Made by a program: the position numbers and the translations under genes
Part shown: piece by piece, positions 1 through 55,235 of the stretch
How the letters are laid out: each line of letters opens with the position of its first letter
Position numbering within the stretch: position 1 is the stretch's first letter
Notes under the pieces: model-generated
What the model saw: only the letters and a program-made list of their open reading frames with translations
Database searches by the model: none
What the model was told of the DNA's origin: nothing
Source: Ascidiella aspersa
Lineage: Eukaryota
Direction of reading: 5' to 3'
Assembly (NCBI GenBank): GCA_963924565.1
Contig: OZ004607.1
Location: forward strand, 7,502,001-7,566,000
DNA length: 64,000 nucleotides

Positions 1-46
1 AAATGCACGGTCAAATGATTTAAGCAAAATAAAGTAATAACGCAAC

Positions 47-1140: not shown

Positions 1141-4100
1141 CTTCTTAAGCTGTTCGATGAAGGTCGGGTAAACCTGTGCCATGAACTTCGAATGAAACGC
1201 GATCCCGCCCGTGTTCACCAGCTTCGCGAACACGCCGCGCTCCTTCAGTGACGTCACAAACTCCTGCACCTCCAGCGCCTCCCCCGAGATGGTCACAGAG
1301 TCGCTCGAGTTGTGGCACGCAGGGGCGACACCTGGTGGACACTGATTGAGGCATTCTTCCCAAGAAAGACCTGTAATAATTTTGTAAAAAATACAGAAAT
1401 TGTGCTAAGCATGTGTCTAATGTACTGTATAATTATTGCTCGAAATGAAGGCTAAAATTCGAAAATGAAACATCACACTAACTTTTTTTTTGACTTGGTT
1501 ATTAGTGAACCACATTTTTAATATAAATAGCAAAACAATTCATATAACGTTAACTTTAATGAGTATCGTCAGCGATCTACTTTCGGAAATAGTTTACTAT
1601 TTGTCAGTTTGGAATGAATGCCATAATATCAATAAAAATATATAAGACAGAACCTCAAAATAAAATTGTGGTGAATTAATAAAATAATTTTTTTTTACTA
1701 GCTATTGTATTGTTTAAATCAGAGATCTGCAAGATCTATTCTTGCTGTCAAACTATAGGTTGATAAACGAACCGAGAGAATTAACGATACTTGGAACAGC
1801 GATAAATGTGAATTGGCCAGTGTTTTTGTCTAGTGCCGTTTTTTTTTTTTAATAATTGAGGACCATATCAGTAGTCATATATACTAATGAAACCTGCTCC
1901 CACGTGTGTGTTAAGAACTGTGCTATATACCTTCTGAATCTAGACCTTTTCTTTATATATACTATTAACATTTTATTACTACGAAAACTCAGTATTAAGA
2001 ATTGGCTCCAGCTCTAACTTGTATGTCAACAAAATTAGACCATAGTGGACCTCTTGAAATTTCCTCATAGAGGTCCCAGAACCCAATTTGAAAAGCGCAC
2101 TTTACTAAGCTGTATTCAAATTTCGTAGTGGCGCAAAATCTTACCGACAGCTGCCATTGCTCCGTTAGGCAGACTAGCTTCCTTAATGCATTTCCCGCGC
2201 AAGTAGGCTGCCTTTAGTGTTTGCTCGAGAGTCAAGCAGCCGTCCGCGTAGCTGCAAGCCAGCTCACCCACCGAATGACCGATGATGCCCGACGGCTTCA
2301 CGCCAACCGACGAGAGAACGTCAATTAGGCCCACCTGAGGACAATAGAGAGTCTTTTTAACTAATAAATATTCACTGGCGTTTCTAGCAGTGTAATTTGG
2401 GCGGTAGTTGGGCAAATATTGAATTCAAATGCAAAAAATACAATTTTTTTTAGTAAGTTTTAGCTAACAATTTAAATAATGTTAAGTGTTTTTTGAATCA
2501 GCTTTCCAAATTTGACTCTAAATTTATTAATTAAATGATTCAAATAAACCTCTACCAGACCTGTACGGCCGCCAATCCGACAAATGCGTTGATGGAATCT
2601 TCATACGTGACGTCACCAGCTGTTAAGAGCATCTGACGTACGTTGACGTCATAACAGCGCAACGCGTCATTGCATCTGTCGATCGCTTTCGAGAAAATCG
2701 GGACACGAAGGAGATCGACTCCCATGCCTTTCCACTGGCATCCCATACCTGGTAAATGTAACGTGAAACACATGATTAAATCTAAATAAACTGTGCCATC
2801 TCCGGCAAAGCATATCGAAATCAGTTAGCCTGACCAGGATTATAGTGCAGCAAGACCAGGCTGAAAAAAACGACTAGCCTGCGGTGAGGTTCGAACTCAT
2901 GACCTCCGGTCAACAATAAATGTGTTTACTTCATTTACATGATTAGGGTAGAAATTTCAAGAGCGTAATTTACAGTCAGCAACTTTAGCTAAACGTGGCT
3001 AAGAGGAAAAATACCTAAGCTTTGTCTTGGTGGGCATAATAATAGTTTAGTTATACATCTCTGATACATGGATGCAAACAATGCATATTTTCATATTTAT
3101 TGACAAAAACATGATTGACAAAACACGATTTGGAAGCATAATTTATCGAAAAATATATCTTACATTTTTGCCGAAAGAAACTGAGCTATAATAGTAAAAG
3201 ACATACAAAGCCTATGTGCTATTGTCAGATAAACAATTAATACGGTTTACAATACTGTAAGATGTGTCCGCTGCACAATTAAAACAGACAAAAATAAAAT
3301 ACCGGAGCATATAAACCAGACGTCGGAACCGGCTCCCGCTTTGTATTGTTCGCTCACACGCACGTCACTGTCCTTCGTTGTGACGACATAACCGCGATGC
3401 GGATGCAGCAAGGGGGGAATGTCCCAGAGACCAGGTGACGTCAGGCTGTTTGCATTTTGCAGTTTTTCTGCAAGCAATTTTGAGCTTAGAAAAACTTGAA
3501 GAAGCGTACCACTGGCAATATATAAGTCCCATCAAACGAGGCGATGTTATAACTGTTGCTGTCAGGAAAATTATTAATCACAGATGGCACTCTGACGAAC
3601 GCCAATTGTGTAGGTCAGAGGTTCCCAAACATTTTGTTGACGACGCCCTTTGAAAATTTATGAAAACTTGCGGCGCCGTAATGTATTCAAAATTTCAAGT
3701 TTCAAGCTATATTAAAATTGGTATTATCAAATCATGCTTCTTTAAAATGTAAAATACTGAAAGAATTTAAAAAGTTGACATAGGTTGAAAAACAATGTAA
3801 TAGATGGCTCGGAGAAATCTCCTCGTGAACTTCGTGAAACCGCTGTTTTTAAATTTAAAAATGGTGCTGGTTTGCTTCGCTTATGTTTGTTAAAATTATC
3901 GCCTTCTGTAAAATAACGCGAAACTGTCCGACATGAGCGCACCGCTATTTACCTTCGAGGCCTTTTTCTGTCCTTGCCGTGAAGAGTTGAAGTCTCGGGG
4001 TATCTCCCGTCATAACGGGACGCATTACGTCACGATTCTCGTGCTCACTGGAGCGTAGAATGACGTGTACGTTGCTCCCGCCGAATCCGAAGGAGTTGAT

Positions 4101-7100
4101 TCCGACCAGTGCGTTGGCTGGCAGACTTGTGGCCTCCGTTACAACTTTCAGGCGTCCTTCTGTGAGACCTATATGCAACAAATAACCGATAAGTTCCAGA
4201 GCAGTGGATCTTGTGTAGGATCTTAACAATTTGTGTCACTCTGTCAATTGTATTTCTTTCTTTCACGTACATTTTCCCATTTTGTAGGACCCCGCCCTCG
4301 TTGTATTTCTTATTCGTTTATTTGCCAGTTTAATTATTTGTTTCCGTTTATGGCCCCTACTCGCCCTGTATATCGCCAACTGTTTTCCTTTCTTCGTTTC
4401 AATTACTGATTCGAATAAACCAACGTACTTACGTTTCGGAAAAACACACGACGAAACCTCTCAATGAAGTTTTTAAAGTCATATTGAAAACCACAAACTT
4501 GAGAATATCTAAAAAAAATTTAAAATATTGCATGCTCGTGGCTCCACAGGAAGGCAAGGGTTACGGTTTGTAATAGGAATTGTGTTGTTTTTTCAGAAAA
4601 GAAATTAATACGTAGTTACTTACCGAGTACTAGCTTACTGATTATCACAGCGCAAGCGGCTCTTTTTTAATTTATGGTTGCTCTTGGAAGGAGCCATGAG
4701 TTTAAAACTAATAGATAAAGATTTTAGCAACGTTTACAATTTGTATTTTACTAGAGTGTGTAGCGTTGTTAAATGCTCGTTTGAGTCCCAGTACCAGGGT
4801 AACTTTTTTTAAACAACAATGACGTACATCACAGAATATAGTTGAGTTAACATAAAAGGCATAGATAAGGTTAATTGGAAACAACTGAATGTTCAGGCAT
4901 TCGATTAGGTTTATTTTATTCATTTTCTCTGTATCAAGTTGGAACATTCTCTGTCCGCAAGGGTAAAGCACATAAGGCATCGTTTTATTAAGGGTGAAGC
5001 ACGCCGACTGTACGGTGGACGCCTAAAGGCCGATGACCTTATTAAAAGCCTGTAATAGTTTATAGAATATTTCCCTGTACACACATTTACATCAATCTTG
5101 CAAGGTTGGCCAATCAAGGATTCCTAGAAATGGCGCCTTTGTTCGGCAAACAATATGTTTACGGTAAAGTCATCTATGCGACGCTCTACGGTACATTAGG
5201 TCGACCCATAGGTTTACGGGAAAGGCGTCTCAGCCTTTGTCTAGCTTTGTATGGCAATTTTAATTCCGATAATCACATTGACAGCACCCTAATCAGCAGC
5301 TTATAATGCAACCTTCAAAAAGAGATAAAAAACAAAGGCATATGCTGGATAAAGGCAAAAAACAACAAACAGCGGGTTGATTTAAAGTTCACTGTATATC
5401 GCGACCGTTTACTATAAAGTTGATGGGACAACTGTTACGTGTGTACAATGCGAGATATTCGACCATGAGATGTCGGGTTTAAACTAGGTCAAACCAACTA
5501 CCAATAAGACAGGCCTGCACAACACGTTTCGGCCAACGATGTAATACTTTCGGTTTATTACTTGTTTGTACTTGCTTGAATTCCCTGATCACCCATAATT
5601 TTTGTAATGTTTAGCAAAAACAACAATATGCATAGTTAAGCCAAGCGTCAGTTGAATTGATTGATAGCGGGAAATAATAATTTAAAGGTTGCCTAATCAA
5701 GGAGTGCTGGGCAAACTTTTCATGTCGCTAGTCGTATTTTGAATTCAGCACTTTTATTAACGTGTGGAGAATTGTGATGGATAATATGAAGTTTTCACAA
5801 ACTGCGCTTTGAAACCAATTGTAACATCAAAATATTATTCTGGTTTACGTATTTAAAGAAGACACTGCAATGGTACAACACAGAGGATAAACCAGGTTTA
5901 TACGGGGCCATACATAAACAATAAAAATGAGATTTCCTAACATAATGACTGAAACACGAGCTTTGTTTTCATTTTTTTGTAACTCGGCTACAGCAATTTG
6001 CCTATTATAGGCACGTTATAATGGTTAGTTATATTAAGTTCACTATGCGGTCTGCCGATTTTGTTTTTGTTTGTTGCGGCCTTTGTACCATTTCTAAATG
6101 TACAGGCCCGATCTAAGGTAATACTGAAACCTACAAATAAGTCCGAATGTATTTGAATTAGAAGTAGTTCTAAATTGAATCGCGAGCCGCAGACAAAGGT
6201 TGCGTATAATACGTTATGCGGGTCTGTTTGTTTTTTGGCATTATGTTAGTACATACCTGGAATGTCAGGGTTTGGCTCCTCGAAGTGCAGATTGGGGGGC
6301 AGGGTGCCGGACTTGACGGCCAACGCGCACTTGACCACAGCGCAGAGACCACTGGCCGGCTCGCTGTGACCCATGTTGGACTTGACCGAGCCGATGAGTA
6401 GGGGACTTTCCCGGTTTGCGCACATTACCTCGTCTATGGCGCCCAGCTCTTGGGGATCTCCCGCCTTTGAGAGAGCACACAAAAGGTTCGCAGTTAAAAG
6501 GCGAGAATATTTGATATAGGTTGTGAATCGTATTATTTTTCTGTAATTCGTTTATTTATTTGAATCAATCGGACCATCTATATAGGGACGGCGCATATAA
6601 ATCATAATTAGCCAGCGAGGGGTACCTAAACCTGAGGTGGACCTGGGTCTCGGGAAACGCTCATTGCTTTAGCAAGACCACATTTTTATGGGGCATAAAA
6701 TAGAAAGCTTGTTACTTAAAAATTTCCCTTATTTTAAAACTCCTGCCCCCACAAACTCAATTTTCGCTCTTTATTGGCTTTAAGCAGCTTATAGTGGCAA
6801 CACGTTATTTAACTTTGGTTAAGTCGTTGAAAACATCCGTTTATATGGTTAACAAGATGCGTTCACCTTGGTGCCGGTGCCGTGGGCTTCCACGTAATCC
6901 AGGAGTTGCGGGTTCAAACCGCACTCTGCGTAGGTCTCTCGCAGCAGCAGACTTTGTTGGTAACCTGGAATAAGTTTAACAAATAAAAGAGAGTTTAATA
7001 ATAATTTGTAACGTTGTTGTATTTTTTATTTTATTTTTTGAATAGAAAGATAACTCAACAATACCAAGTTTGTGACGGTTAGATTACCTGAAGGAAAAGT

Positions 7101-10100
7101 GATTCCCTCTTTCTTCCGCCCATCCGTGTTGGTCTTGGCGTGAACGACGTCACAGTAACTTTGTGACGTCATTCCTTTCTTGCAAATGAAAATGGCGGCC
7201 ACGGCTTCGGATCTAGCGTACCTTGATACAAAAATTTACATTTTAAAAGCGCTTAAAAACTATTAGTCATAAATCATAATTTAATTCAGTTCTTTAAAAA
7301 ATAATGTGTCTTGAAAATTCAAAAACGTACAACTAATTTTTGTTCTCATGTGCGCCTTTAATCCCATCAACTATTTATTGGCTTGCTAAAAATGTGGTCG
7401 TTTTGACCTATTGCCCAGTATAGTAATGGTTCAAAAAACGTCGCGACTGCTTTTTATCGAGAGCACCGCAAGCTGGAAACGTATGGGAGAACCATTGGTT
7501 AAAATAAATAATGGAAACAAAGCATGTTGAATGTAAGCAAACTTGAAGGGTCATGAAAAAATGCGTATTAACTGTACCACGCTAATTCAGAGAAGAGTTG
7601 ACAGCCACACAAATTGTTTGAGATAGGAGAGCGCAAAAGGCCTTGAAAGCCGGCTGTGTTTGTCAAATGTAATGTAACTTTTTCGTCCGAAACGTTATCT
7701 CCTGTTTGCCGGCCAACTAAACATGTTCTTGTTGTTACGATGTGTTAACCTGTGCGTCCAGGGGTTATATGCGGTTATTTTTAGTTGCCTTTGAATAAAG
7801 CTGATCGGGCAATGGTAAACATAAACTGGTGGAACTCCCAAATAATTGAAGTTTGCACGTTGGCACTTCAGTCGCGTTGTTTAACAATTGCTACGAACAA
7901 TGGAGCATAATGGTTGGAGGTTGTAGTAAGACGTAATAAGAATATCAAAGCCCATACAGAAGCAGGTATCATTTTGAACGTTTCGAATAACTCTTTATTC
8001 ATTTTCAACATCGATGTTGAAAATGAATAAAGAGTTATTCGAAACGTTCAAAATGATACCTGCTTCTGTATGGGCTTTGATATTCTTATTACGTCGTGCT
8101 ACGAACAATGTTTTTAGAATCATAAAAATACTAATAGCCATTTGGCGACGTCAATATTCTTTTGTGGAACGTTCTTAGGTTAATTAAAGTTTGCGTTAGT
8201 ATGTGCTGATTGATTTCCAAACTTTATTATTTGTGTTCCATTCGGAGTTTTCATGCAATATTCGCGTAACCTATATATCCAGAAAAATGAAAATATAATA
8301 TTAAAAGTATTTTTTTTCTAATTTGGCAAATTTTAAAGTTTATAGCCTTTAGACCAGGGGTACTTAATCGGGGTCCATGGACCCCTTGGGAATCCGTGAA
8401 CTAGTTTTAGGCGGTCCAATGCCTAATTGAAATGTTATTGTATATTTAAGAAGCAATCAACTTTTTAAAGAAAAGAGTTTTTGGACCGGAATAAGGGGAT
8501 TTCTAAAGTCTATTTGTATTGTCAACACGCCACCTAATAAATCGCATTGAATTCTGAAAGGTCAAAATTCGCCACAAAACCTAATCACAATGTTAAATAA
8601 CACAAAAAATAACAACATCACAACTAACCCGTTGCCCGAAGCGTCGAAGGACTTGCACGCCCCATCCGGCGAGAGCATGTTGAGGCGCTGGAACTGCAGC
8701 GAGCACTGAGGCTTCAGCAGCAGGTTGGAGCCGCCCACAATAGCCGCGTCACAGTGTCCCTCCCGGATCGACTGGCAAGCCATCTGGAGCGCCAGGAGGC
8801 TAGACGAACACGCCGTGTCAACCGACATGCTCGGACCTTCGAGTAATTTGTTGGGTTGGTTATGAAAAGTTTAACAAACAATATGACCTCGTGCGAAAAT
8901 TACACAAACTGCTTTATGCAAACTATATAAAATACTCGGCGTTGCCCAGACGCCGTGTGTCCACCGACATGCTCGGACCTTTCAAAGATTCAAGACTCAA
9001 TTTATTTTTCTGCTTTGCAAACAATTTAAAAAAGAGCATAAGGAATAACACAAGGACAGCGAACGGACCTAAGTTACGGTCATCAAGTCGAGCCGCCATT
9101 TCAAAGGCATTTGTATCGTTAAGTGTTTATAAAGGATACGTTTGGAATCGTTATAATAGTTCGAGGGGGTCGCGATTATAAAACCCAGGTATAGGGTATG
9201 TTTGTAGGGACATTTGAGTTATGAAACTATGTATGCTCGGACCTTGCAAGGGCATTTTTATCGTTAAGTGCTGCGTACAGGAGGGATACGACTTAAAGCG
9301 TTATAATAGTTCGAGGTGGTCGTGATTATAAAATTTGGGTATAGGGTAAGTTTGTAGGGACAATATAGAGTTATGAAACTATATATTGGTTAGTGTTAAA
9401 GTTACCTTATAGGAATTAACTACCATTTTTTTAGTTTCGTAGGAAAAATAAAAGGAATGTCATTTCAAGCTATAGAGTGCTTATTTTTCATAAAAATTAA
9501 TTCAAGTTACAATCGTCGATCTTTTGGAAGCCTTGGGCAACATTGTGTATGCTTGAAATTCGTTTTTAACCGTTACAGTTACAGCATTATTAAATTCGTG
9601 GAAACGTTAAACAGTCTTTCCTTCCCCCTATATTCCCAGATAATTTTTATGCTATGCGAGATGCATATGAAAAATTTAACATACAAATTAAACTAGCGAA
9701 TTTTGGCTTCGCTAACATTAAATGTAGCATTAGCGTGCAAAAAATAAACGCGGGTCGCTGGCTAATAGGTTGTAAGCGATCATATAAAACCGAAAACGAC
9801 CACTCTGGCTCGGATCCGATCGCAAAATTGGCTTTAATACGGTTTGGTTAAAGCCAGACGATATATGTCGTCGCATACGTGACGCCAAAACGTGAATACA
9901 ACTGAAATGTGAATACAAATGACATTTTCCAGTGGTCTGATTTTACGCTAGGCCGCCCTGCGTGAAACAGCTGACATTACGTCACTGTGGTTAGACCAGT
10001 CACGTGATTATCTCGCAACTTCTGTCACGCGAAATGTATTTTAAGTTAAACCCTATATTGATGACAAACATTGGCCGAGGCCTTGCTTCCCTTGGTTTTT

Positions 10101-13100
10101 GTTTTATGTATAAATTATACCACAATTACTAAAACACAACCACGCATATAAGAAGGTTTTAGACTAAGCGAGTACACTCGAACGAGACTTGAAATATCAG
10201 AACAAGCTAAATGCCTCCCAACCTAAAAGCATCTTGTGTTTTTTTGCAAATTGTCGTTAAAAGTAAATATGCCCTAAACCTATCTAGCCTTATATGATGC
10301 TTAGCAATTGACCATTGTTTCTTGTCTTCGCCTATTATTTTTCAACAAAAAAGTGTATTGTGTTTACATACAGATTAAATTTTCCTTCGTTTAATTGATT
10401 AATATAGGCGCAAAGTAATTGCTTGTTTTTGCAAACCGCAAATTGCGGTGAATGTACTGTCCTACGAAGTATTTTACCGTAACACCAAGATGTACCTGTG
10501 ATAAAGATACAAGCCTAGTATCGGACGAATACCAATACTAACATTTTGCATCGGGTATCGGCTCAGAACCATTATTATAGGACAACCCTAACCCAAACTA
10601 TAGACGGGGATTAGACCTTCCTATGGGATGAACACCATCGACCTCATTGAAAAGCTACCGCAAGCAAGATACCTTTGAGGTCGTAAAAGTAGCTGAGTCT
10701 GTTAGCAAACATCGAAGTGGTACAACCGGTCATGCCGTAGCCTTCCAATGTCTCAGGATCGCTGGACAGAACCTCTCTCGATTCAGAACCGCTTACTCCA
10801 ACCCATACTCCAGTTCGACTGCCCGCCAACTTGCTGGGGCTTATGCCTGCGTTTACAGTGCGAAGATTATGTTGCTAGTTGTGGTTACAAACTTGGCTAT
10901 TATGTTGCTAGTTGTGGTTACAAAAGTACGACAAATAAACACTAAACAACTTCAAAACTGTTGAACAACGTAATAGGATTTGGCAGTGTTGTAATGACTT
11001 AGGTCAATGACTATACTTTTAGTGAACTTCAGTCACTGTTCTCAAATGACTTGACTTAATTTCAGCCTTTAGGATAAAGGGCTGACTTGACTTTAGTCTT
11101 TTCGACAAAGACTTGGGTTGAAATGAAGTGTTTACATTAACCTTTTTTATATAAAATCTGTTGTCTATCTTACATTTTGGACATAAAACAATTTGCTTGC
11201 TATAGGTTGCGTTTTTTTTTCAGTTTGGTTATTATCAGGTTAAGTAGTTTAACGTTAATTTTTAAGACACAGACTTGACTTGGAATTGACTTGCTCTTAT
11301 TATGTACTTTACGTGACTTGACTGGGACTTAATTAATTTAAAAACGACTTGTTTACAACAACACTGGGATTTGGTGCATTTTGAATAAGATTATGTTTCA
11401 AGAAATTAAAGAAAAAAGGTGGTGTTTAATGACAGTACTTGAATATATGTGTATACTATCTGTAAGTAAATAAGGTTTGCTTTCTTGTTTCCATTTTTGC
11501 TTTACCTGCATCTACAATTGCTTCGAAGGAAACTTCTAGAAGCAGTCTCAGCTGCGGGTCCATGTTGTTTGCTTGCTTCGGGTGAACTTCAAAGAACGAA
11601 GCATCGAACTTGTCCAGCTGCTTCAGTTTTCCATTTCGCTTCGGAAGGCCCCATAACCCTTTAATACGAAGCATTAGGCTCCCCGTAAGGCAATTGTCTC
11701 AAAATTAAGAGATAAAAAATGATAAAAAATATCAGATAAAAAAAATTGAGATAAAAATATCTGTATTGTACCTACTCTGTTTTAAATCAACAATTGGCGA
11801 ATCGCAAGACAAGACAGATAACGAAGTGACACAAAATGTGTATTATGGCGGAGATTGTTAATTTTAGAGACTGTTTTCTGCTGGTTTTTAATGCAGGCTA
11901 TAACAGGTTGGATTTATATTTTTGTCAAATTAAACGTTACACAAATATTTAAACCATCGCAATTTGGGAAATGTTATGGAATAACGTTTTAAACTGTTTT
12001 AAAAAGGTTGTGTCGTGATTTTCTTATTCCAAAATATTTGAAATCGTAAGTGTAACTATATGTTTTTATGTACGAAAATTGCGTCAATAACTTAAATGTT
12101 GTCGCAAACTTAAATTTATTTGCTTTAGTTGCAATTTCAAACATTTTCCAGCTGGGATTTGCCATGAATGACCCATTGTCCGTAACAGGCGCGCAATGCG
12201 ATTTTGCCAGCTGGGTTACGATAAATGGACTCACAAAAAAGGTAAAACAGAAATGACTACCATCTGTACTGCGCAGTTTGTGGTAACTGTTTCAATGACA
12301 AACTAATCAAACCGTACATTATGTTTTAGTTGCGTTATTGGCTACCATACCACGCCACGTTAAGAACTCGTACTTTGCATAGACGGTCAAACTATAAAAA
12401 AACGAGTTGGCGGCGTAATGGCACGTGAACAACATTACGTGACAGCCAAAGCCGAACTACCAATAAGCACAGCAGCAAAGCCGTCTGGGTGTGGTATAGT
12501 TTTTCACGTGAGAATGGTAAAACATCACTCCCAACATTAAGTTCACTATAATGCAACAAAACGTTTGTCAATTCGAATGGTCTACAGTAGGCCTACTTGT
12601 TATTATGACCAGTCAAAAATGATTTAAAAATGTATTACATACTGAAACAGGTCTGATAGTAATAACTAAACTAAAAAAAAAATACGCGCGATCTAGAATC
12701 TTACTACTTTTTTACAGTAACGAAACAGGTTGTCAAAAATGAAATTGCAAGGAAGACATAAATAATAGGAGAATAAATATAATAACAATACATGACCCAC
12801 CCGAAACCAAAGGCTAACTCTACCCAAATAATGTCAGCAAAATAACCCCCCGGACGAAAATGTGGTAGAATTCTAGGACAGTCCCAAAAAATTAACTGTT
12901 ATTTTGTATAACAAGTAGTTTAACCAATGAACAAATCGCATTAGCTATATGGATTTACCGAAATTCTAAGCTGCGCTATTTGCTTAGGTAGGTTTTAAGC
13001 AAGCTAACTACCAGAGACAAAACAACAAAAATTGTCAAATAAGAAAAAAATAAAATGGGACTTTCTTACTTACAAAAAAACGTAAAATTACACTTTACCT

Positions 13101-13228
13101 GGTTTCCAACGTCTGCTGTCTTCTGTGACTAAATCTTTTCCCGACAGAAGGTTTTGCCAAAATTCTTCAACGTTTTCCGACTCCGGAAAGCGACCGGCCA
13201 AACCTGATAGGCATATAATTTCATCCAT
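1141..13228 (-). CDS. Type I FAS-like megasynthase copy A, 5' part (KS and most of AT); gene continues beyond the left edge
   Basis: Twelve GT-AG exons: 13228-13099, 11658-11506, 10846-10673, 8836-8629, 7221-7088, 6964-6867, 6464-6257, 4168-3953, 3467-3303, 2748-2561, 2334-2145, 1370-1141. Lengths and phases match copy B except for 6 extra nt in exon 8. Motifs: [34 protein letters not shown] (KS); GMGCQW, GHSVG, AFHS (AT). Confidence 0.93.
7903..8096. repeat. Insertion containing a perfect 166-bp palindrome (7930-8095), flanked by a 14-bp direct repeat
   Basis: Two 83-bp arms with no spacer, centred on ATCGAT at 8012/8013. TGCTACGAACAATG at 7889-7902 and 8097-8110. Absent at the paralogous site near 26195. 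Confidence 0.9.
10984..11366. mobile_element. hAT-like MITE with GACTT subterminal repeats
   Basis: TIR CAGTGTTGTAA / TTACAAC(AAC)ACTG with perfect 8-bp TSD GGATTTGG. Empty site in copy B intron 2 (~22700). Relatives at ~704-830, 39515-40382 and ~42950-43314. Confidence 0.85.
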
Positions 13229-13380
13229 TTTTTTAACAAAACCAATTTTAACGTTCCCTCGAACGTTGAGATGGCAAATGTGAATCGATTTTGGGAACTT
13301 AGCCTGTTATATTCACGAACGTGGTGCGATCTTGCGCCGACCGGCATGACGTCGCAATCGGGTTACTCCCGGTCAAACGT
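13229..13380 (-). promoter_or_regulatory. Conserved proximal promoter / 5' leader of copy A
   Basis: Nearly identical in inverted orientation to 21110-21262, while introns have diverged. Contains a CRE-like GACGTCAT, SRE-like ATCGCACCAC (13321-13330, minus) and AATATAA. Confidence 0.55.
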
Positions 13381-19200: not shown

Positions 19201-19473
19201 TGTCAATTTTACTTGTCTTATATACTTGACTTTATTATTGAAAGCGAGTTAGTTAGTTTTCAAACCATGCAGCTATTCCCAAATTTTGTGTTAGCAGTTC
19301 TATTTAGGACACGTAGCCAGGTAATCATAGACTCACACCTAAAAAAAAAACTAGAGCAAAATTACATGTTCATCTGTTCAGCATACGAATACTCGCATTT
19401 GTGTTCTGGGTCAACAACTCTCAATAGAGCATCCGCGATTTGGTGGAAAGGAGTCTGTTTCGTTTGTTGTTGA
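16230..19473 (-). pseudogene. Deleted and degenerate 3' half of a further FAS-like paralog (remnants of exons 21-24 and 32-35 with introns)
   Basis: Collinear similarity to 36900-38410 and 44215-46837. Exon 24 is joined directly to the exon 32 acceptor region. ACP DSL reads DLL followed by a frameshifting deletion, and the exon 21 donor is mutated (CAG/ATGAAC). Confidence 0.88.
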
Positions 19474-19475
19474 AA

Positions 19476-19870
19476 TTTGCGTGTTACCACTTGACAGAAA
19501 GAAGACCGCCTACCAGCAACAATATCTCGCCAGACGGCGCACGAGGGGCGCTGACGTCTTAGTAAGTAATTGCGACGTCAGCACACCGGAGGGCGCCAGC
19601 GAGCTGTTGACTGATGACGTGGGAGGCATATTTCACCTGGCCATGGTTCTAAAGGACTCGCTGTTTCAGAATCAAAACACGCAAAGCTTCGAAGATGTGT
19701 GAGGAATCAAGTGCAATGGAACCGACAACCTCGACAGGTCAATACACGGCTAAAAGTTTCTATCTTGTTAAGACCACCAGTAAAAAACCTTATTGCAAGA
19801 TTGTTAAGCTACTGGTCTTATCTCTAGATTTGAGTCGATAAATAGCTCGCACAACTTTAATGTAAAAAAA
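19476..19870 (+). pseudogene. Inverted extra copy of KR exon 32 plus following intron
   Basis: Matches 44218-44600. Premature stop GTG TGA where copy B has GTG TGC. Confidence 0.88.
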
Positions 19871-19926
19871 ACAAGCTAGAAAAACAATTGCCCTGCAGTG
19901 AGGTTGTTTGTTTTACAGAAACGTAT

Positions 19927-20215
19927 AGCGAGGATTGGTGTATGGTTGTTTCTCGACTCGCTCTTCTCTGAGCCTGTGTTGCTCAGTTGGTAGATCGACG
20001 GTCCGAAGGTCGTGAGTTGAAACCTCACTGCAGGATAGTTGTTTTTGCAGCCTGCCCTGCTTGCATCATTGATCGACAGATTCGGTTAGTCTGAGATGGC
20101 TTGAGGTGTACTAATGACACCTAATCCGTAATCGTTGGTCAAAAAGCAGCAGAACGTGCTATAGATCACAGTTGTTGAACACACATGTGTGATTTTGTGT
20201 GTATCTTACTTTACC
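19927..20215 (+). mobile_element. tRNA-related (SINE-like) repeat
   Basis: A-box-like TGCTCAGTTGG and B-box-like GAGTTGAAACC followed by a shared body. Other copies at 40384-40564 (minus), 21668-21848 (truncated), and partial ones at ~2800-2910 and ~29385-29500. Confidence 0.7.
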
Positions 20216-21109
20216 AAGTATTTATTCATGCTGTACTCGCGATTTTAATCTTTTTGTCGAACCTAATATGCAGAGACTTATTTAAAAAATTGTCGCTTTT
20301 TGATTTGGTTGGGCCACTGTGGTCACTGTTTTGATTTGGTTGAGTCAAGTGTACATCCATATTGAGTTTGGTTTTAGGCAAATTTATTTTTTAATTGAAG
20401 ATATGGCTTTTATTAATTAAATGTGATCGTATATATGCTAATGTTTTATGTTTTTTCGCTTACAAAAAGTAAAGAAAAATTGTGTCTTTAATATTTTATT
20501 GTTTTACTTGCTGTTTAGTCGCCACGCAAAAATATTGAGAAACACTGGTTTTATAACCAAACAACAAAAATTTGAACTAAATGGATGACCAACAATTAAA
20601 CCAATTCTTATTGGTTCAGAAAAATTTGTTTACGCATGGTGCAGATGTGATACTGCCAATAAAAAAAATAATAATTCATAATATCTCAAGATTTATTTTT
20701 AATTAGACTACATTTTATGTACAATGATTTGCAAATGCATTTTAGAAATTCACCCTGATGAAGGCTTCTGACGCTGATGTCGTTCTTGTTCATGTCTTAA
20801 GGCTGGAGTCCATACCATGCCTGGTAGTAACAGCGTATTTATTGAGTACTTGGTATGGGTTGAAGACTAAAATTTCTTGTTGACGCCAAGCTTTTTACTG
20901 TATTGCAAAAAAAACGTTGAAGTTCAAGGTTTAAAAAAGTGTAAAGGTTTTGTATAAAACTTAAATGCTGACAAAGCTTATTTACGAACAAAGTCTTACA
21001 AACCGCCATAAAACACGCCACAGTCAATCAATGTTCGCATGAGATACACCTGTTAAAAACGATTTAAAGCTGAGTAAAGTCTGGCCGAGAATTAACCCAA
21101 ATTACCGGT

Positions 21110-21262
21110 AACGTTTGACCGGGAGTAACCCTTTTGCGACGTCATGCCGGTCGGCGCAAGATCGCACCACGTCCGTGAATATAACAGGATAAGTTCCCAA
21201 AATCTATTCACATTTGCCATCTCAACGTTCGAGGGAACGTTAAAATTGTTTTTGTTGCAAAA
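21110..21262 (+). promoter_or_regulatory. Conserved proximal promoter / 5' leader of copy B
   Basis: CRE-like GACGTCAT, SRE-like ATCGCACCAC at 21161-21170 and TATA-like AATATAA near 21178, all shared with copy A. Confidence 0.55.
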
Positions 21263-24200
21263 ATGGATGGTATAATATGCCTATCAGGTTTGGCCGGTCG
21301 CTTTCCGGAGTCGGAAAACGTTGAAGAATTTTGGCAAAACCTCCTGTCGGAAAAAGATTTAGTCACAGAAGACAGCAGACGTTGGAAACCAGGTAAAGTG
21401 AAATTTTGCGTTGTTTATAAGTATGATTGTCCCATTTTATTTTTTTCTTATTCGCCAATCTTTTGTTGATTTTTGTTTAAATTGCTGCGGAATAACTAAT
21501 AACTAAGCAAATAGCGCAGCCTCGGGAATTTTGGTAAATCCATATTGCTAATGCGATTTGTGCATTATAAAAACTATAAATAACAGGTGATTTTTTAGTT
21601 GTTTTTCTTTTTTTCTGTAGTTTTATATGGTTTTTGATTGGTCATGTAATAAGAAAAACTTATTACCTGTTGTTTTTCTGGCTTGCTCTGCTTCCATCAT
21701 AGATCGACAGATTCGGCGAGTCTGCGATGGCTTTTCGGTGTACTATTGATACGGAAGCCGTAATCGTTGGTCATTAAGCAACTTCCGAGGGGCTAGATCG
21801 CAGATGTTATTAAACACATATGTTTGTGTGTGTCTTTCATTATTACCTGGAGTTGTGTTTTACTATTCTTGCGCGACAAACTATATAACGGACCCCGACG
21901 GCTTTCCAGATATCCACCAAGGGAAACTTAGCAATGTTTCTGCTGTGCTTATTGCTAGTTCGGCTTTGGCTGTCACGTAATATTGTTCACGTGCCATTAC
22001 GCCGCCAATTCGTTTTTTTTTTATTTTGGCCGTCTATCCAAAGTACAAGTTATTAACGTGGTGTGGTATGGTATGGCACAATTAAAACATAATGGTCCAT
22101 TTAAAAAAGTATTCCACAACAATACTCAAATTGCGGGGGTTTAAATATTTAGGTGGTACACTGAAACTTCGAATGTTAGTAAAAAGCAGTACCATATAAA
22201 AAAAAAATTTCCATATAAAATTAATTTGATAAAAATATAAATCCAACTAACTAAGCTATAGCTTGTATTAAAAACCAGCAGCTTGATTCTGTAATTTTCG
22301 ATCTTCCTTTGAAGCAATTACGACTATCTGTTGACAAACATAACCAATGTCTTTTTAATTTTCAAACACAACGCTTGCTAAATTTTGAAACACATTCTTA
22401 CCCTAATGCTTTGTATTAAAGGGCTGTGGAGCCTTCCGAAGCGAAATGGAAAACTGAAGGAGCTGGACAAGTTCGATGCGTCGTTCTTCGAAGTTCACTC
22501 CAAGCAAGCAAACAACATGGACCCGCAGCTGAGACTGCTTCTAGAAGTTTCCTTCGAAGCAATTGTAGATGCAGGTAAAGCAAAAAAAGAAGGCAAAAAA
22601 CAACCTTACTTACAAGATATATAGATATTTAGCTACTAATATTTAACACTATACCTTTTTGCTTTAATTGCCTAAAACATTATCATATTTAAAATGCACC
22701 TAATCCTATTCCGTTATCTAGCAGTTACCAGGAAAAACAAATGTTTATTGTTTATTTGTCGTTGTCGCTTCAAGTGAAATCTGATTATCCAGTTTCCAAC
22801 CCCAACTAGCAACTTACATTCGCTCTATAAACGCAGGCGTAAGCCCCATCAATTTGTCGGGCAGCCGAACCGGGGTCTGGGTGGGGTCGACTGGATCTCA
22901 ATCAAGAGAAGTTCTGTCCAGCGACCCGGAAACGTTGGAAGGCTACAGCATAATAGGCTGTGCTACTTCGATGTTTGCTAACAGACTCAGCTACTTCTAC
23001 GACCTCAAAGGTATTGTGCTGGCAGCTGCTTTTTAATCGGTCGATAAGATTGGTTTTCATTGCGAAGGAGGGTCTAGTCCCCGTCAATAGTTGGGGGTGG
23101 TCCGAAATAAAATATCCGTATAGAAATAAAATACCAACTACCAACATCGCTAGTTTGGGCATATCTTGGTACAGGTATATCATTTTGGTTCACGGTAAAA
23201 TACTTCCTAGGAGAGTAAACTTATTGAAATTTGCAAAAAAATACACAATTGCGCCTATGTTAATCAATTAATCAACAAATAACATCTGCATGCAATCAGG
23301 ATAAATTGTTTTGATTTGTTATAAAACATTAGCGAAGACACCAGTTAAATATACTAACATCGTGTAAGCCAAGATAAGTTAAGGCCGTATTTTACTTTTT
23401 GAACACAGGAATGCTTTTTAGGTTGGGGGGCATTTAGTTTGTTATCAAATAAGTGTTGTTCGAGTGCACTAGCTTAGTCTAAAACTTGCTTATATGCATG
23501 GTTGTGTTTCAGTACTTAAATTTTAATTTATACACAAAACCAAACGAAGCAAGGCCTCGGCCAATGTTTGTCATTAATAGGGTTTACCTTAAAATACATT
23601 TTGCGTGAGAGAAGTTGCGAGACAATCACGTAAGACGTCTAATCGCAGTGAAGTAATATCAGCTCTGCCATGCAGGGCGACCTGACGTAAAATCAGACCA
23701 CTAGAAAATGTCAGTTGTATTCAGACTTGGACAACTAGATTTATTTTAGCTTTTTAAGATTAGATTTGAATTAAAATTGGAGCATTTTAGTTTTTCCAAA
23801 TTGGATTAGAATGAGATCGTTTTGAGTTTTCTCAAATTCGAGTAGAATTAGAATTACCGAATTTTAAAAAAATCACATTTCAATTAGAATTTGAACTAGA
23901 ATCACATTTAGTTTTTACAACCAATTTAATCTTATAAGAACGTGAATGGTAAATATGTGTGTGCTAATTTTCATGATTTTTGGACTGTAAAAATTACATA
24001 CAAGTCGTTCCAACCAAAAAAATGTAATTAAAATTCTGTTTTTGAACTGAGAGACTGAAAATGCCGTTGGACGAAGTAGCATTTTTAGTAAAATCCAAAT
24101 TAGATTAGAATTAGAATTAGCCACATTTTGCTCTAATTCAATGAATTAGAAAACTAGACTTATCTAGTTGTCCAGGTCTGGTTGTATTCACGTTTCTGTT

Positions 24201-27200
24201 ATTCACGTTTCACGACTGTGAAGACCTATTCAAGTCACGACTGCGACGACCTGTATCGTCTGGCGTTAACCAAACCATAATGAAGCCAATTTTGCGTTAA
24301 TTCTGAGCCAGAAATGTCGTTTTCGGTTGTTATCCAGCGACTCGCGTTTTTTTTTTTTGCACGCTAATGGTGCATTTACTGTTAGCGAAGTGAAAGGCAC
24401 TTGTTTTATATTTATTGGTAAATTCCTACTACGCATCTCGCATAACATAATAATAATCTAGCAATATAGGCGGAAGGAAAGACTGTTTAACATTTTCAAC
24501 CATTTAATATCACTGAAACGTCAAAAAACGATTTTTTAAGAATACACAATGTTGCCCAAAGTTTCCAAAAGTCGACGATTTCAACTTAATTAGTTTTTTT
24601 TCATGAAGAGAAGCACTTTTATAACTTGAAATGACAATCTTCTTCTTTGTCCTGTGAAACTAAAGAATGGAAGTTAAATCCTAAACGGGATCTTTAACAC
24701 AAAAACAATAAATTTAGCCTACCAGGATGTTATAATCGCGACCACCTCGAGCCAATGTAGCGCTTCCAAACCTGTCCTTCCTGAACTTAATCACGTGAGT
24801 GGTCCAACCTCAGTGACGTTATATCAGCTGTGCCATGCAGGGCAACCAGACGTAAAATCAGACCACTGGAAAAATGTCACGTTTCTGTTGAATTCACGTT
24901 TTGTCGTCACGAGTGCAACGGCCATATCATCTGGCGTTAACCAAACCGTAATGAAGCCAATTTTGCGTTAAGATCTGAGCCAGAAAGGTCATATCCAGCG
25001 ACCCGCGTTAATTTTTTGCACGCTAATGCCGCATTTACTGTTAACGAAGTGAAAGGCACTTGTTTTATTTTTATTGGTAGGCGGGAGGAAAGGCTGCATT
25101 TCCAGCCATTTACTATCGCTGTAACTGTAACAGTAAAAAATTTAAGCACACACAATGTTGCCCAAGGCTTCCAAAAAATTGACGATTGAAACTTGAATTA
25201 TTTCTTTTTCATGAAAAAGAAGCACTTTTATAGCATGAAATGACATTCTTCTTATTTTTCCTATTAAACTAAAAAATGGCAATTAAATCCTAAACGGGAT
25301 CTTTAACACTAACCAATACATAGTGTCCTAATTCCAATGTCCCTACAAACTTAGCCTGTACCAGGATTTTATAATCGCGACCACCTCGAACCAATACAAC
25401 ATTTCCAAACCTACCCACCTGAACACAGCACTTAACAATACAATACCTTTAAAAGGTCCGAGCATGTCGGTGGACACGGCGTGTTCGTCTAGCCTCCTGG
25501 CGCTCCAGATGGCCTGCCAGTCGATCCGGGAGGGCCACTGCGACGCGGCGATCGTTGGCGGCTCGAACCTGCTGCTGAAGCCCCAGTGCTCGCTGCAGTT
25601 CCAGCGCCTCAACATGCTCTCGCCAGATGGAGCGTGCAAGTCATTTGACGCTTCGGGCAACGGGTGAGCTGTGAGGTTGCGATTTTTTATGTTTTTTAGC
25701 GTTGTGTTTATAGATTTCGGCGAATTTTTACATTTCAAAATTCAATGCGGTTATTAGGTGGCGTGTTTTTTTTTTCTCCACAGTATCAATTTTACGCCAC
25801 ACTCTTAAGGCTAGAAACTTCCCTGCCAAAATTCATTTAATATGTGTTAAATTAAAAAAACATTCTTTTGTATATTATTTTTTTGGAGGATACATAGAGA
25901 TAACGCAAGTATTGTGATTAGAGGCTTTGGTCTTTTGACATTCAAAATTCGTGGCGTGTTTGTTTGCCAAGTATTAATTAATTGAGTTTTATATTTTATA
26001 AAAATAGAGGTTAGGCAAGCACTCTACGAGACCTCCGAATGGGAGGCAAATAACTAGATTTGGAAACCAATGGGTCACCTACTGTTACAAACCCAAATTT
26101 AAGTAACCTAAAAAAAGAATAAAAATATTTTAAGTTACCGAAAAACAAGCTCCGCAAAACCGCTATTGCTCTAATAAATGATTCTAAAAACACTGTTCGT
26201 AGTAATTGTTAAACAACGCACTTAGTGCCAACTTGCAAACTATTTCGTTGGCCGGTAAACAAGAGATAACGTTTCGGGCGAAAAAAGTAACTTTTCATTA
26301 ACAAACACAGCCGTCTTCCAAGTCCTTTTGCGCTTTCTGCCTTCTCAAACAATATGGTGGCTGCCAACTCTTCTCTGAACAAGCGTGTTACAGTCAAATA
26401 CGCAGTTTTCGTTATAGCGTGCATTTAAGTCGCATAATGGTAAGAAAATAGCGGACGTTTAGAACTTTTAGAATTTTCAAAAAACACTTTTTCAAAGCAC
26501 TTACTTAAATTTTAACTATTAGTTTTTAAGCGCTTTCGAATTTTAAGTTTCTGTATCAAGGTTCGCTAGATCTGAAGCCGTGATCGCCATTTTCATATGC
26601 AAAAAAGGAATGACGTCACACAGTTATTGTGACGTCGTTCACGCCCAGACCAACACGGACGGCCGAAAGAAAGAGGGAATCACTTTTCCTTCAGGTGAGA
26701 TAACGTTAACCGTCACAAACTTCGTATAGCGTTGAGTCACATTTTCTATTTAAAGACAAATAATTCTCGCATTACAAATAGTTATAAAAGGCTAATCGTT
26801 TTTTCTTGAATCCATTCCAGGTTACCAGCAAAGTCTGCTGCTGCGAGAGACTTACGCAGAGTGCGGTTTAAACCCGCAACTCCTGGATTACGTGGAAGCC
26901 CACGGCACCGGCACCAAGGTGAACGCATCTTGTGAAATACAAATTAACGGGTATTTTTTATTCGTTCAACAACCTAACCAAAGTTAAATAACGTGTCGTC
27001 ACTGTTAGTTGCTTAATGCTCATGGGACGAAAATTGTCAAGAAAAAAAGTTAATTTAAGGTGAGTTTAAAAATGACAAGCTTTTTCATTTTATGTCGCAC
27101 AAATATTAGGCCTTGGTATAAAACAGAGTACCAGGGTCCATGCCCCTACCTATCTAATTATAAATGATTTGTACGCGTCGTTCCTACATGGCACAGTTGT

Positions 27201-30200: not shown

Positions 30201-33200
30201 TACCGCTTAGAAAATTGTGCTTCCCAAATGAGGATCCGTGGCTTCCGTTACAAAAATTTTCCTTTTAATTTGTTGACGGATAAGCTCCGGAGCTAATTTT
30301 CTAACTTATTTTTCTTGATAATAAAATGTTGATGGTATATATTAATACCGATTTGGTCTTTGAATAATTTACAGAAACCAAAAGGGTAGGGCGCTGGACC
30401 CCAAAAAACATTGGCTAAGAACATTCATCGCTGTTCCAAGTGTCGTAAAGATGTAGAACCGGTATATAGTTTAACAACAATTCTGATCTTGCAGATAACC
30501 TGTTTATACAATACAATAGCTAGTAATAAAATATTTTTATTTAATTTTGTATTCGTATTTAGTTTTGTAAATAATTCCCAACTGACAACTAATTAACTCT
30601 GTTTCTAAAAGTAAATGACTTACGATAGTATATTAGACAAATGCTTCACAAAATGTTCTGTACTTTTTGCAAAATTTTTACAGGTCTTTCCTGGGAGGAA
30701 TGTCTCAATCAGTGTCCACCAGGTGTCGCCCCGGCGTGCCACAATTCGAGCGACTCTGTGACCATCTCGGGGGAGGCGCTGGGGGTGCAGGAGTTTGTGA
30801 CGTCACTGAAGGAGCGCGGCGTGTTCGCGAAACTGGTGAACACGGGCGGGATCGCGTTTCACTCGAAGTTCATGGCGCAGGTTTACCCGACCTTTATCGA
30901 GCAGCTTAAGAAGGTTCGAGAAGTTTCTATTACGTTTCGTGTGTTTTTATCATCGCTTTTTTGAAACAACACCGTTTCAAATTAACATCATCAAATTTTT
31001 TGGCTTATATCGTCAAGCGAAGCACAGGGACCGTTAAAATTTTAATTCAAACTGACATTGGGCCGTTAAGCAGAACCCTATTTGCAGAAAACAAAACCTT
31101 CGAATTGTTTTGTTTTGTTTCGTGTTTTTCGCGTTAGTTTGACATGCTATTGGAAGATACATTTTAAAAATCGCGAGTGTGGCTCACAATTTTCTAAAAC
31201 CCATAAAAGTTTTCTGTAGAAATGGAGCATGTGGATACCTTTACGAGACTGTATATAGATGCGAACCGCCAAAATATCGGCAAGGAAACTAAAAGCAACG
31301 TCGTGCATGACTGGAACTTATAAACAGTAGTACTAAATTTGTAGGCTTTCAACCATAGTAACGAGTTCTAATTTATTCCGATTCTTTTTCAAATGTGTAA
31401 AGAGTGCACACATAAAATCACAGATAATCCCTGATCCGAAAACGCGCTCCTCGAAGTGGATTTCGACGTCGGCCGACAAGAAGATTCCCAGAGATACGGA
31501 TGAGTGGAAGCCATGCGTGGCGGATTGCTCGGCTGAATACCACGCCAACAACCTCTGCAAGCCGGTCATGTTCCATGACGCCATTAAGAGGGTGCCGGAC
31601 GGCGCAGTTGTGCTAGAGATCGCTCCCCATTGCCTTATGCAGGTGCAACTTTAAAGCTTGAAGCGCAATTATGGATTTTTTCAGGGAGTCGAACCGAAAC
31701 CGAACCGGAACTTTATGAACGGGTTTTGGATAATTTTTTTTCTTATCGTAACCGAACCTCAACCGGTTTTTGTAAGATCTTATGGAGCCGAACCGGAACT
31801 GAACCGAATATTTTAAAAGTACCTGAACCGAACCCGAACCTGTAAATAAAAGCGGTTCGCTCCAGCATGACGTGACAACTTGCATTTTACAGAGTTAACT
31901 TACGCCATGTTCGAAATTTTATGAAAAAATATAAATATTGAATAAATAAAACGTTGATTTTTTTGATTTTTTTGATTTTTTAGATATTTCAATAATAAGT
32001 TGCTGTTTTTTTCAATACATCACGTAACTTGTTCGACTCCCTGGATTTGTTTTACCTTTCTTAGCTAAAAAATTGATCGGCCAATATTCTAGAGGCAAAA
32101 GGGGGTGGCAAAGAAAGTTTAAAATCGACTGACTTAAAGGAACTAATAGTCTCATTTACCGATTACACTTAAATATTTGAAGGCGATCCTAAAACGCTCC
32201 CTACTGCCCTCTTGCGAGCGCGTGCGCCTGGCTGACCGCAAAGAGCCCCACGGCGCCGTGACACTGTACCGGGCCCTTGGCAAGCTGCACGGCTGCGGCG
32301 TCGCCCTTGACCTTCACGCGCTTCAAGGTCAACCCGGACCACGTGACCTCGTTCCCGCGCGCGTCGACTGGGATCACTCCGCTTCCTGGTACGTGCCGAG
32401 CGCGGATGAATTCCTGAGGAGTGCGGGCGGCGGAGGCGGAATGCTGAGCGACATTGTGAAAATAGGTGAGAGATGGATTATAAAATGCATCCATTACATC
32501 ACTACCACATCACATCACCAATACCAACACTAGCAAACCAGCGTCTTAACTGTTGTATTTAAAATTTTTTTTTGTGGGTGGTAAACTTGTTGTTACTAAC
32601 TGTTCGCATTACGTCACAATGCTCCAAAAGTGTCGTGATGTTTACTGCGTTAAAGCCACATCAGTGGTTATTCTACATTGAAAGTAAGCACGTGTGTTTT
32701 TGGGCGACTGAGAAACCAAGCCAAAAGCGTAACTGATAGTTAACACTTCTTGGTATCTTCTGAAAAGCGTCGAAGTATTTCCAAAATAGCGGGCAGCGCA
32801 GTATTGCGTTCGTAACAGTTTTTCAGCAGGGTTAGGGTATATTACAGAATTTTGCTCTGGATTAGAATCCTACCACCCTTATTTTAACATTTAACGAAAG
32901 GAGGTGTCAAAGTTAAAATTGCAAAGAAGGCGTGCGGGGATTCGAAAGGTGTTCGTTGCTGGACAACTGTGGAACAAAACAGTTAACATATAGACACCAC
33001 CGTATGTAATAATACATATAATAACAATACTTGAACCACCCTAACCTATACGCTAACTCTCACCCTAGCCCAAATATTGTTAGCAATACAACCCCCCACC
33101 CCCCTTTGGTAACATTATAGAATTCACGTTAGCCGAAGCTTGGCAAGAAGGCGATAGCGCATTCTCGCTCCGTTAAGAAGAGTTGGAAGACATTTTGGGC

Positions 33201-55128: not shown

Positions 55129-55235
55129 TGGGTTTAATATTAGCTGTTGTAACATTAAAAGTTATACGAGTTGCGAAAATTAATCAGTCCAACCATACAC
55201 GTTGGCGTTTCTGGCTTTATTGTTATAAACGACAA

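What the first reader, a model, noticed from the sequence alone, without database searches (positions are those of the whole stretch)
1141..30913. Head-to-head inverted pair of FAS-like genes, both apparently intact
Copies A (-) and B (+) are divergently oriented about 8 kb apart. They share exon structure, near-identical promoters and alignable but diverged introns with independent transposon insertions, and neither has a stop or frameshift in exons 1-12. With the remnants between them this implies at least three paralogs, a birth-and-death expansion more typical of specialised-metabolism genes than of usually single-copy FASN. Since FAS works as a dimer, A/B heterodimers are conceivable (inference).
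Basis: partly seen in the sequence, partly recalled or inferred. Interest (0 to 1): 0.7.

Follow-up and report, generated by a model that had tools for sequence, protein, structure and literature searches.

The report
Fatty acid synthase twin lacking thioesterase
In a sea squirt, the ordinary fatty acid synthase gene sits head-to-head with an unbroken copy that has lost the chain-releasing end domain and changed residues predicted to line the chain-binding tunnel, so the copy likely makes a different lipid, and it is likely missing from some individuals.

Summary
The pair is real, but the copies are not equivalent. Copy A (minus strand, 38 exons, 2452 aa, running out of the window) is the ascidian's canonical FASN and carries the only animal-type thioesterase (TE) found in the genome. 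Copy B (21263-46804, 35 exons, 2158 aa) is unbroken, 87% identical, keeps every catalytic residue checked, and stops just after the ACP because of a small deletion. B evolves faster (101 vs 38 derived residues; KS 18 vs 2). Its changes cluster in exon 3, next to residues named in a paper as lining the KS acyl tunnel, and that exon is more diverged than its neighbours. Two decayed B-type remnants lie in the spacer. A second, older head-to-head pair on another contig is also TE-less and has Phallusia relatives, so TE was lost twice among ascidian FAS genes. One other DNA sample shows only A-type contigs, so B is probably a presence/absence variant. Best reading: a young TE-less, AFPK-like synthase derived from FASN whose product is released in trans (0.55). 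Main rival: a decaying duplicate (0.27). No product or B transcript is shown. TE-less FAS-like proteins are known in molluscs; my searches found no report for tunicates.

The parts
1..13228 (-). Copy A, canonical FASN, exons 1-12 (exon 12 ends at 1141); the gene continues left of the window to G000:C1:7483422; 38 exons, 2452 aa, KS-MAT-DH-psiMT-ER-KR-ACP-TE
   Evidence: model open to the stop; TE hit; spliced A-type contig in run X3
13229..13588 (-). Upstream/promoter region of A, homologous to that of B
14770..15193 (-). Farther upstream block shared with B's upstream region (69% identity)
16224..19475 (-). Remnant C: decayed B-type 3' half (parts of exons 21-24 and 32-35), frameshifted, with B-type introns and the same TE-removing deletion as B
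19476..19866 (+). Remnant D: isolated exon 32 (KR) with an in-frame stop, plus flanking intron; starts at the same breakpoint as the internal deletion of C
20915..21262 (+). Upstream/promoter region of B
21263..46804 (+). Copy B, 35 exons, 2158 aa, KS-MAT-DH-psiMT-ER-KR-ACP, no TE, open frame and all splice sites intact
   Evidence: catalytic motifs
22837..23010 (+). B exon 3: cluster of B-specific KS changes (mammalian numbering V111S, S112T, E115Q, M132I, T133I) with raised synonymous divergence
   Evidence: tunnel residues from PMC13303079 passages
34455..38409 (+). B exons 16-24 (DH end, psiMT, psiKR): the most diverged block, apparently little converted
46628..46804 (+). B last exon: ACP, then a stop produced by an about 16-nt deletion relative to A exon 35; homology to A ends near 46841

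Best explanation
Copy B is an unbroken, thioesterase-less duplicate of the ascidian's canonical fatty acid synthase gene (copy A), and it likely works as a specialised synthase that builds an acyl chain of likely altered length and likely depends on another enzyme to release it. Shown: gene anatomy, the TE loss, intact catalytic residues, origin from the A lineage, faster evolution. Inferred steps: (1) an A-lineage duplicate lost its TE through a deletion just after the ACP, and later rearrangements left B inverted next to A with remnants C and D; (2) patchy gene conversion kept MAT, ER and most of KS close to A, while exon 3 and the DH-psiMT block stayed distinct; (3) with KR, DH and ER intact the chain would be fully reduced, not a pyrone; (4) changes beside G113 and at M132 would shift KS chain-length preference; (5) the chain would leave the ACP in trans, by a separate hydrolase or acyltransferase or by MAT transfer to CoA, a route the animal probably already has because an older TE-less clade persists; (6) B is probably present on only some haplotypes.
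For: B frame open over 2158 codons with 34 canonical splice junctions, while sister remnants C and D carry frameshifts, deletions and a stop. All 15 motifs checked are intact. A/B dN 0.075, dS 0.343, omega 0.22. Against the Phallusia FAS, 101 B-derived vs 38 A-derived residues (chi2 28.6); KS 18 vs 2, KR 12 vs 1, DH 21 vs 7, MAT 2 vs 3. 8 of the 18 KS changes lie in residues 99-134. Exon 3 four-fold divergence is 10 of 24 vs 43 of 343 in the other exons 1-13 (p 0.0007), with heterogeneity over all exons p 5e-8. G113 and M132 are named as tunnel residues in PMC13303079 (passages). One animal-type TE for four type I FAS genes. Trees put B with A and the TE-bearing Phallusia FAS, and the C3 pair with two TE-less Phallusia proteins; one clade of TE-less ascidian proteins is rejected, p-AU 9.2e-06.
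Against: No product, activity or B transcript is shown. 26 of 103 B-derived changes hit sites conserved across animals (2 of 38 for A), which fits relaxed selection as well as a new function. A direct B vs remnant C test found no difference in synonymous/nonsynonymous ratio (15/14 vs 28/37, p 0.50). Gene conversion from A can itself keep a frame open and lower omega. B seems absent from another sample under the same organism label, so it is dispensable at least there. No release enzyme was seen among 247 flanking ORFs scanned, and no stand-alone PF00975 thioesterase of animal origin was found. The exon 3 window was chosen after seeing the data; the tunnel mapping rests on alignment, not on a structure.
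Confidence: 0.55

Rival explanations
1. B is a duplicate on its way out: it lost TE, selection relaxed, conversion from A has kept much of the frame intact, and it is being deleted from some haplotypes, as C and D already decayed.
For: The TE loss is a frameshifting deletion. 26 changes at conserved sites. B vs C ratio test not significant. B-type contigs apparently absent from run X2. Two dead relatives in the spacer.
Against: No disruption in 6.5 kb, including the little-converted exons 16-24, while C has 8 gaps in about 1070 aligned exon bases. In exons 21-24, B has 1 change and C 20 since they split. Changes are concentrated in KS exon 3, DH and KR, not MAT. An older TE-less clade is conserved with Phallusia.
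Confidence: 0.27
2. B acts mainly as a partner of A: co-expressed from a similar promoter, it would form A/B heterodimers in which chains pass to A for release, tuning chain length or flux.
For: Promoters 89-94% alike near the ATG; KS 94%, MAT 97%, ER 94.5% identical. Animal FAS is a dimer; cross-subunit KS-ACP cooperation is recalled from memory, and the search found no paper.
Against: Co-expression not shown. The older TE-less clade is only 49% identical to A, so TE-less proteins persist here without a close TE-bearing partner.
Confidence: 0.14
3. A and B are two haplotypes of one gene mis-joined in the assembly.
For: Inverted arrangement; run X2 shows A-type contigs only; B depth in X1 (36-52) is near that of A-type contigs (30-75).
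Against: The 3' flanks share no homology: a sorting-nexin-like gene and ARF lie left of A, TRM10, a kinase and PRKD right of B. 3' introns do not align, dS reaches 0.6-1.1 in most of exons 16-22, and the 3' ends differ. X1 holds two A-type contigs at one exon 14 site besides the B-type one. A second, independent inverted pair exists on C3.
Confidence: 0.04

Closest known systems
[quoted passage not shown]
   Same: A: full domain order with TE, 66.7% identical to P0145 over KS-ACP. B: same KS-to-ACP order and motifs, 63.8% identical, nested with A.
   Different: B has no TE. Lin et al. [quoted passage not shown]
Animal FAS-like polyketide synthases (AFPKs) of mollusc clades 1-3, e.g. EcPKS1 and EcPKS2
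   Same: They end at the ACP without TE; offloading is unknown for most (PMC10764717 section 8; PMC11831141 passage).
   Different: AFPKs form separate old clades reported only in molluscs and arthropods; the same paper found only FAS in 232 tunicate transcriptomes, from KS domains only. EcPKS2 has an inactive ER and makes pyrones; B keeps the ER motifs. The Phallusia TE-less fragment scores 699 bits against mammalian FAS entries and 480 / 409 against EcPKS1 / EcPKS2. B arose recently from FASN itself.
TE-less FAS-like predicted proteins of ticks and mites (XP_077491843.1 Amblyomma; KAI1292235.1 Halotydeus)
   Same: They end shortly after the ACP. 42 of 150 top hits end within 90 aa of an ACP-like motif (this includes fragments and multi-module proteins).
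   Different: They group with arthropod sequences, not with the ascidian ones; they are uncharacterised gene models.
Phallusia mammillata TE-less 'fatty acid synthase' entries A0A6F9DCV3 (P0024) and A0A6F9DBK7 (P0263)
   Same: Ascidian, TE-less, with an ACP motif and basic Ser-rich tail like the C3 pair.
   Different: They belong to the older clade with the C3 pair, not to B's lineage.
Fungal highly reducing PKS with a trans-acting thioesterase (LovB/LovG) and vertebrate FAS with TEII
   Same: Precedent for chain release by a separate protein (PMC4147253 passages).
   Different: No such partner was identified near either pair.

Membership tests
Animal type I FAS (copy A) | KS-MAT-DH-psiMT-ER-KR-ACP-TE in one open frame | tested here: met
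   38 exons, 2452 aa, one stop; PF00975 and PF00550 hits
Animal type I FAS (copy A) | Groups with a TE-bearing FAS of a related species | tested here: met
   With Phallusia P0145, SH-aLRT 97-98 (quick trees)
Animal type I FAS (copy B) | C-terminal thioesterase | tested here: not met
   Stop just after the ACP; no TE match downstream; single TE in the genome
Animal type I FAS (copy B) | Catalytic and cofactor motifs of KS, MAT, DH, ER, KR, ACP | tested here: met
   15 of 15 motifs intact in alignment; their identity as catalytic motifs is recalled
Animal type I FAS (copy B) | Makes free C16/C18 fatty acid | not testable with these tools
   Needs enzymology
AFPK (copy B) | Lies outside the canonical FAS clade | tested here: not met
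   B is sister to A and nested with the TE-bearing Phallusia FAS; no named AFPK sequence was in the trees
AFPK (copy B) | Ends at the ACP without TE (mollusc clades 1-3) | tested here: met
AFPK (copy B and C3 pair) | Intermediate score on the FAS and PKS KS profiles of Lin et al. 2024 | not tested
   Their profiles were not run. KS identity to cat FAS: A 62.1, B 59.4, C3plus 57.3%
AFPK (copy B and C3 pair) | Makes a non-fatty-acid or branched product | not testable with these tools
   Needs enzymology
Pseudogene (copy B) | Stops, frameshifts or broken splice sites inside the retained domains | tested here: not met
   None in 35 exons
Pseudogene (copy B) | Neutral evolution | tested here: inconclusive
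   omega 0.22 against A but confounded by conversion; B vs C test p 0.50
False haplotype duplication | Homologous flanks and allele-level divergence | tested here: not met

The most novel reading that the evidence does not exclude
Chordates have their own AFPK-like enzymes: ascidians lost the thioesterase from FAS duplicates twice, and copy B is a snapshot of the step from housekeeping FAS to specialised synthase, still segregating as a presence/absence allele, with a remodelled KS tunnel held against gene conversion and making a host-encoded specialised lipid.
Probability: 0.3. Interest if true: 0.75.

Novelty: new variant of a known kind. Interest (0 to 1): 0.52.

Why it matters
A published KS-only survey concluded that tunicates have only plain FAS and that all animal FAS carry a TE. 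Here three of four type I FAS genes of an ascidian lack TE, from two independent losses. A and B are 87% identical and differ by a short list of residues, so they are a natural matched pair for asking how a housekeeping FAS becomes a specialised synthase and how TE-less animal synthases release their product, which that paper calls unknown for most AFPKs. If B segregates in populations, carriers and non-carriers can be compared by lipidomics. TE loss as such is not new in animals, and function is unproven, which caps the interest.

Tried and rejected
Expression of B: no RNA holder listed. One laid run (X3) has a contig whose exons abut, so it is read as RNA; it is A-type at the diagnostic sites listed, and no B-type contig was listed. 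That is no evidence on B, as the individual may not carry B. Bins over B-only sequence have almost no cover in X2 (0-3.8 vs 52-75 in X1, six bins); lack of cover alone was not counted, only the A-type contigs that run unbroken through shared exons. Depth in X1 could not separate one from two copies of B (B 36-52; A-type 30-75). X4 (another organism label, depth 2-9 on exons) has two short pieces over B intron 22/exon 23 that fit B or C better than A; too thin to use. A release enzyme near the genes: 147 and 100 ORFs, picked by a coding score from 2012 and 2255 candidates, gave none; short exons can be missed. The second PF00975 hit (contig C20) lies among intronless bacterial-type ORFs that look like a menaquinone operon (names recalled), so it was set aside as contamination. 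An alternative splice from B to a downstream TE: no TE similarity right of B. My first exon 22-23 boundaries of B and exon 20 boundary of A were wrong and were corrected. The careful tree did not finish; both trees are quick trees with SH-aLRT only; Nucella dropped out of the first for length. No Ciona, Styela or Clavelina FAS was named among the listed hits (120 of 282 and 120 of 5736 listed), so the range beyond Phallusia is open. No structure or complex prediction was run, so the tunnel mapping and heterodimers are untested. Literature searches without a relevant hit. Earlier scan findings: none returned. The Atlas look-up of the Phallusia TE-less tail gave only ACP clusters.
Full report
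Setting. The window is G000:C1:7502001-7566000 of a 308.6 Mb, 75-contig assembly. A single-exon SYS1-like ORF from the same genome is 81% identical to Phallusia mammillata and 60-71% to Clavelina, Ciona and Styela, so the animal is an ascidian, probably close to Phallusia. I fetched 100 kb to the left, 40 kb to the right and 200 kb of contig C3.

Observation. A self-comparison shows inverted matches between 1112-13588 and 20915-30942. Copy B has 35 exons from 21263 to 46804 and an open frame of 2158 aa, KS-MAT-DH-psiMT-ER-KR-ACP, with one GC-AG intron. Copy A has the same 35 exons and phases plus three more; its frame is open for 2452 aa and ends in a thioesterase. The Pfam TE family hits the genome twice: A, and a bacterial-looking locus on small contig C20. 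A's TE exon as query finds 1 match. KS and ER queries find four type I FAS genes: A, B and two on C3.

How B lost its TE. Relative to A exon 35, B has an about 16-nt deletion right after the ACP that brings a stop; similarity to A continues about 40 nt past the stop and then ends. No TE similarity lies downstream. Remnant C in the spacer (16224-19475, minus) shares this deletion and B's 3' introns, and is broken by frameshifts and deletions. Remnant D (19476-19866, plus) is an exon 32 with a stop, starting at the same breakpoint as C's internal deletion. B and C therefore descend from one TE-less ancestor; the order of the rearrangements is not resolved.

Divergence. A and B are 87.1% identical: MAT 96.8, ER 94.5, KS 94.1, KR 89.5, DH 80.9, psiMT 65.8; dN 0.075, dS 0.343. 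Four-fold divergence varies among exons (chi2 97, 34 df, p 5e-8): 72 of 189 sites in exons 16-24 against 121 of 754 elsewhere, and 10 of 24 in exon 3 against 43 of 343 in the other exons 1-13. Introns 1-11 align, later ones do not or barely. I read this as an old duplication overlaid by patchy gene conversion (inference). The C3 pair shows similar heterogeneity (p 4e-7).

B has changed more than A. With the Phallusia TE-bearing FAS (P0145) as outgroup, 101 residues are B-derived and 38 A-derived; KS 18 vs 2, DH 21 vs 7, KR 12 vs 1, MAT 2 vs 3. 26 of 103 B-derived changes (this count includes two tail positions) hit sites kept in at least 80% of 10 outgroups, against 2 of 38 for A. Eight of the 18 KS changes lie in residues 99-134; a binomial test run with 7 gave p 0.0009, but the window was chosen afterwards. 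In mammalian numbering they include V111S, S112T, E115Q, M132I, T133I, and farther on Y222F. Passages of PMC13303079 place G113 centrally in the KS binding tunnel, list M132 among tunnel positions mutated for chain-length control, and say chain length is set by KS and TE. B keeps G113 and all 15 motifs checked. Against this reading: changes at conserved sites also fit relaxed selection, and B vs remnant C shows no significant difference in synonymous/nonsynonymous ratio (p 0.50), although B has 1 change to C's 20 in exons 21-24.

A second, older TE-less clade. On C3 two genes about 65 kb apart are also head-to-head, each with 35 exons and an open frame (2157 and 2153 aa), 88.6% identical to each other and 49% to A; both stop after the ACP. 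Phallusia has a TE-bearing FAS and two partial entries that end after the ACP with a similar tail. Two quick trees of the ER-KR-ACP region give ((Phallusia FAS,(A,B)),(C3 pair, Phallusia TE-less)) with SH-aLRT 97-100; holding all five TE-less ascidian proteins together is rejected (p-AU 9.2e-06). TE was thus lost twice. No named AFPK was in these trees.

Other samples. Five runs were listed and four laid on 30500-43500. X1 holds B with no other letters in the 8 pieces listed, plus A-type contigs; the B pieces mostly end inside exons shared with A. Assembly A and B share 19-69 exact 31-mers in exons 12, 13, 15 and 26-29, which should break contigs where both genes exist. In X2 (other sample, same organism label) contigs of 1373-6215 nt are A-type by letters and intron lengths and run unbroken through these exons, so B is probably absent there. 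A cryptic species under the same label is not excluded: X2's A differs from the assembly's A by at least about 1-2% in several exons. X3 holds a 4681-nt contig with abutting A-type exons, which shows that A is transcribed and spliced and corrected one A splice site. Nothing shows B transcribed. A mis-join is unlikely: the flanks are unrelated.

Mechanism. Shown: anatomy, TE loss, descent from the FASN lineage, asymmetric change. Inferred: B would condense and fully reduce a chain on its ACP, with a shifted KS length preference, and would need release in trans. Precedents are vertebrate TEII and fungal LovG (PMC4147253 passages); release by pyrone formation, as in EcPKS2 with its inactive ER (PMC11831141 passage), fits less well because B's reducing domains look intact. 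No partner gene was seen nearby: the flanks hold sorting-nexin-like, ARF, TRM10, kinase and PRKD genes; between the C3 pair lie GST, EMP70/TM9SF-like and ankyrin/PRKG1-interacting genes and a weak phospholipase A2 fragment. I give specialised TE-less synthase 0.55, decaying duplicate 0.27, heterodimer partner 0.14, mis-join 0.04.

Comparison and novelty. Lin et al. 2024 (PMC10764717; I read the abstract, introduction, sections 7 and 8 and passages; its supplements were searched in part, 7 of 18 files not searched) analysed KS domains only, reported only FAS in tunicates, and state that all animal FAS have a TE while mollusc AFPK clades 1-3 lack it. B works, by inference, like such a TE-less AFPK but is not a member: it sits inside the FAS clade. 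TE-less FAS-like gene models also occur in ticks and mites, so the loss is recurrent in animals. Searches found no paper on TE-less FAS paralogs in tunicates; the library lacks most subscription journals and bioRxiv supplements were closed. PMC12267109 was seen in passages only and PMC10515154 as a listing only.

Verdict. A real locus, better described as canonical FASN plus a young TE-less derivative. New variant of a known kind, interest 0.52.

Noticed in passing
G000:C3:10975660-10990535 (-) and 11055264-11074061 (+), loci L019-L021 and L027-L029: A second head-to-head pair of intact TE-less FAS-like genes, 88.6% identical, with several unrelated genes between them; older clade shared with Phallusia.
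   Followed up: yes
L036 (G000:C20:16596-20102): Intronless bacterial-type ORFs resembling a menaquinone operon (names recalled): likely a contaminant or symbiont contig in the assembly.
   Followed up: partly
window 55236-56165 (-): Intronless 308-codon protein kinase ORF between the TRM10-like and PRKD-like genes.
   Followed up: partly
window 54056-55129: Tandem duplication of about 540 bp at 90% identity.
   Followed up: no
window 46346 and the matching intron of copy A: Intron 34 has a GC donor in both A and B; the C3 genes have GT at this intron.
   Followed up: partly
window 23624-25465 and 9099-10010: Intron 3 holds an internal duplication of about 550 bp in B that includes sequence next to the exon 4 acceptor; A has related duplicated pieces.
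   Followed up: no
C1 and C3 stretches held (404 kb): One palindromic 8-mer is strongly over-represented (43 vs 2.5 expected in 204 kb; 22 vs 2.2 in 200 kb), often inside exons.
   Followed up: partly
L033:6207-8009 (+): 601-codon ORF with RNase H and integrase domains, an LTR-retrotransposon-like element.
   Followed up: no
L002:5911-7500 (-), L003:8916-9827 (+), L015:1143-2756 (+): Long ORFs (530, 304 and 538 codons) with no Pfam match at E 0.001.
   Followed up: no
G000:C3:23956585-23957409 (+): A fifth, weaker ketoacyl-synthase hit, probably the mitochondrial type II enzyme (not fetched).
   Followed up: no
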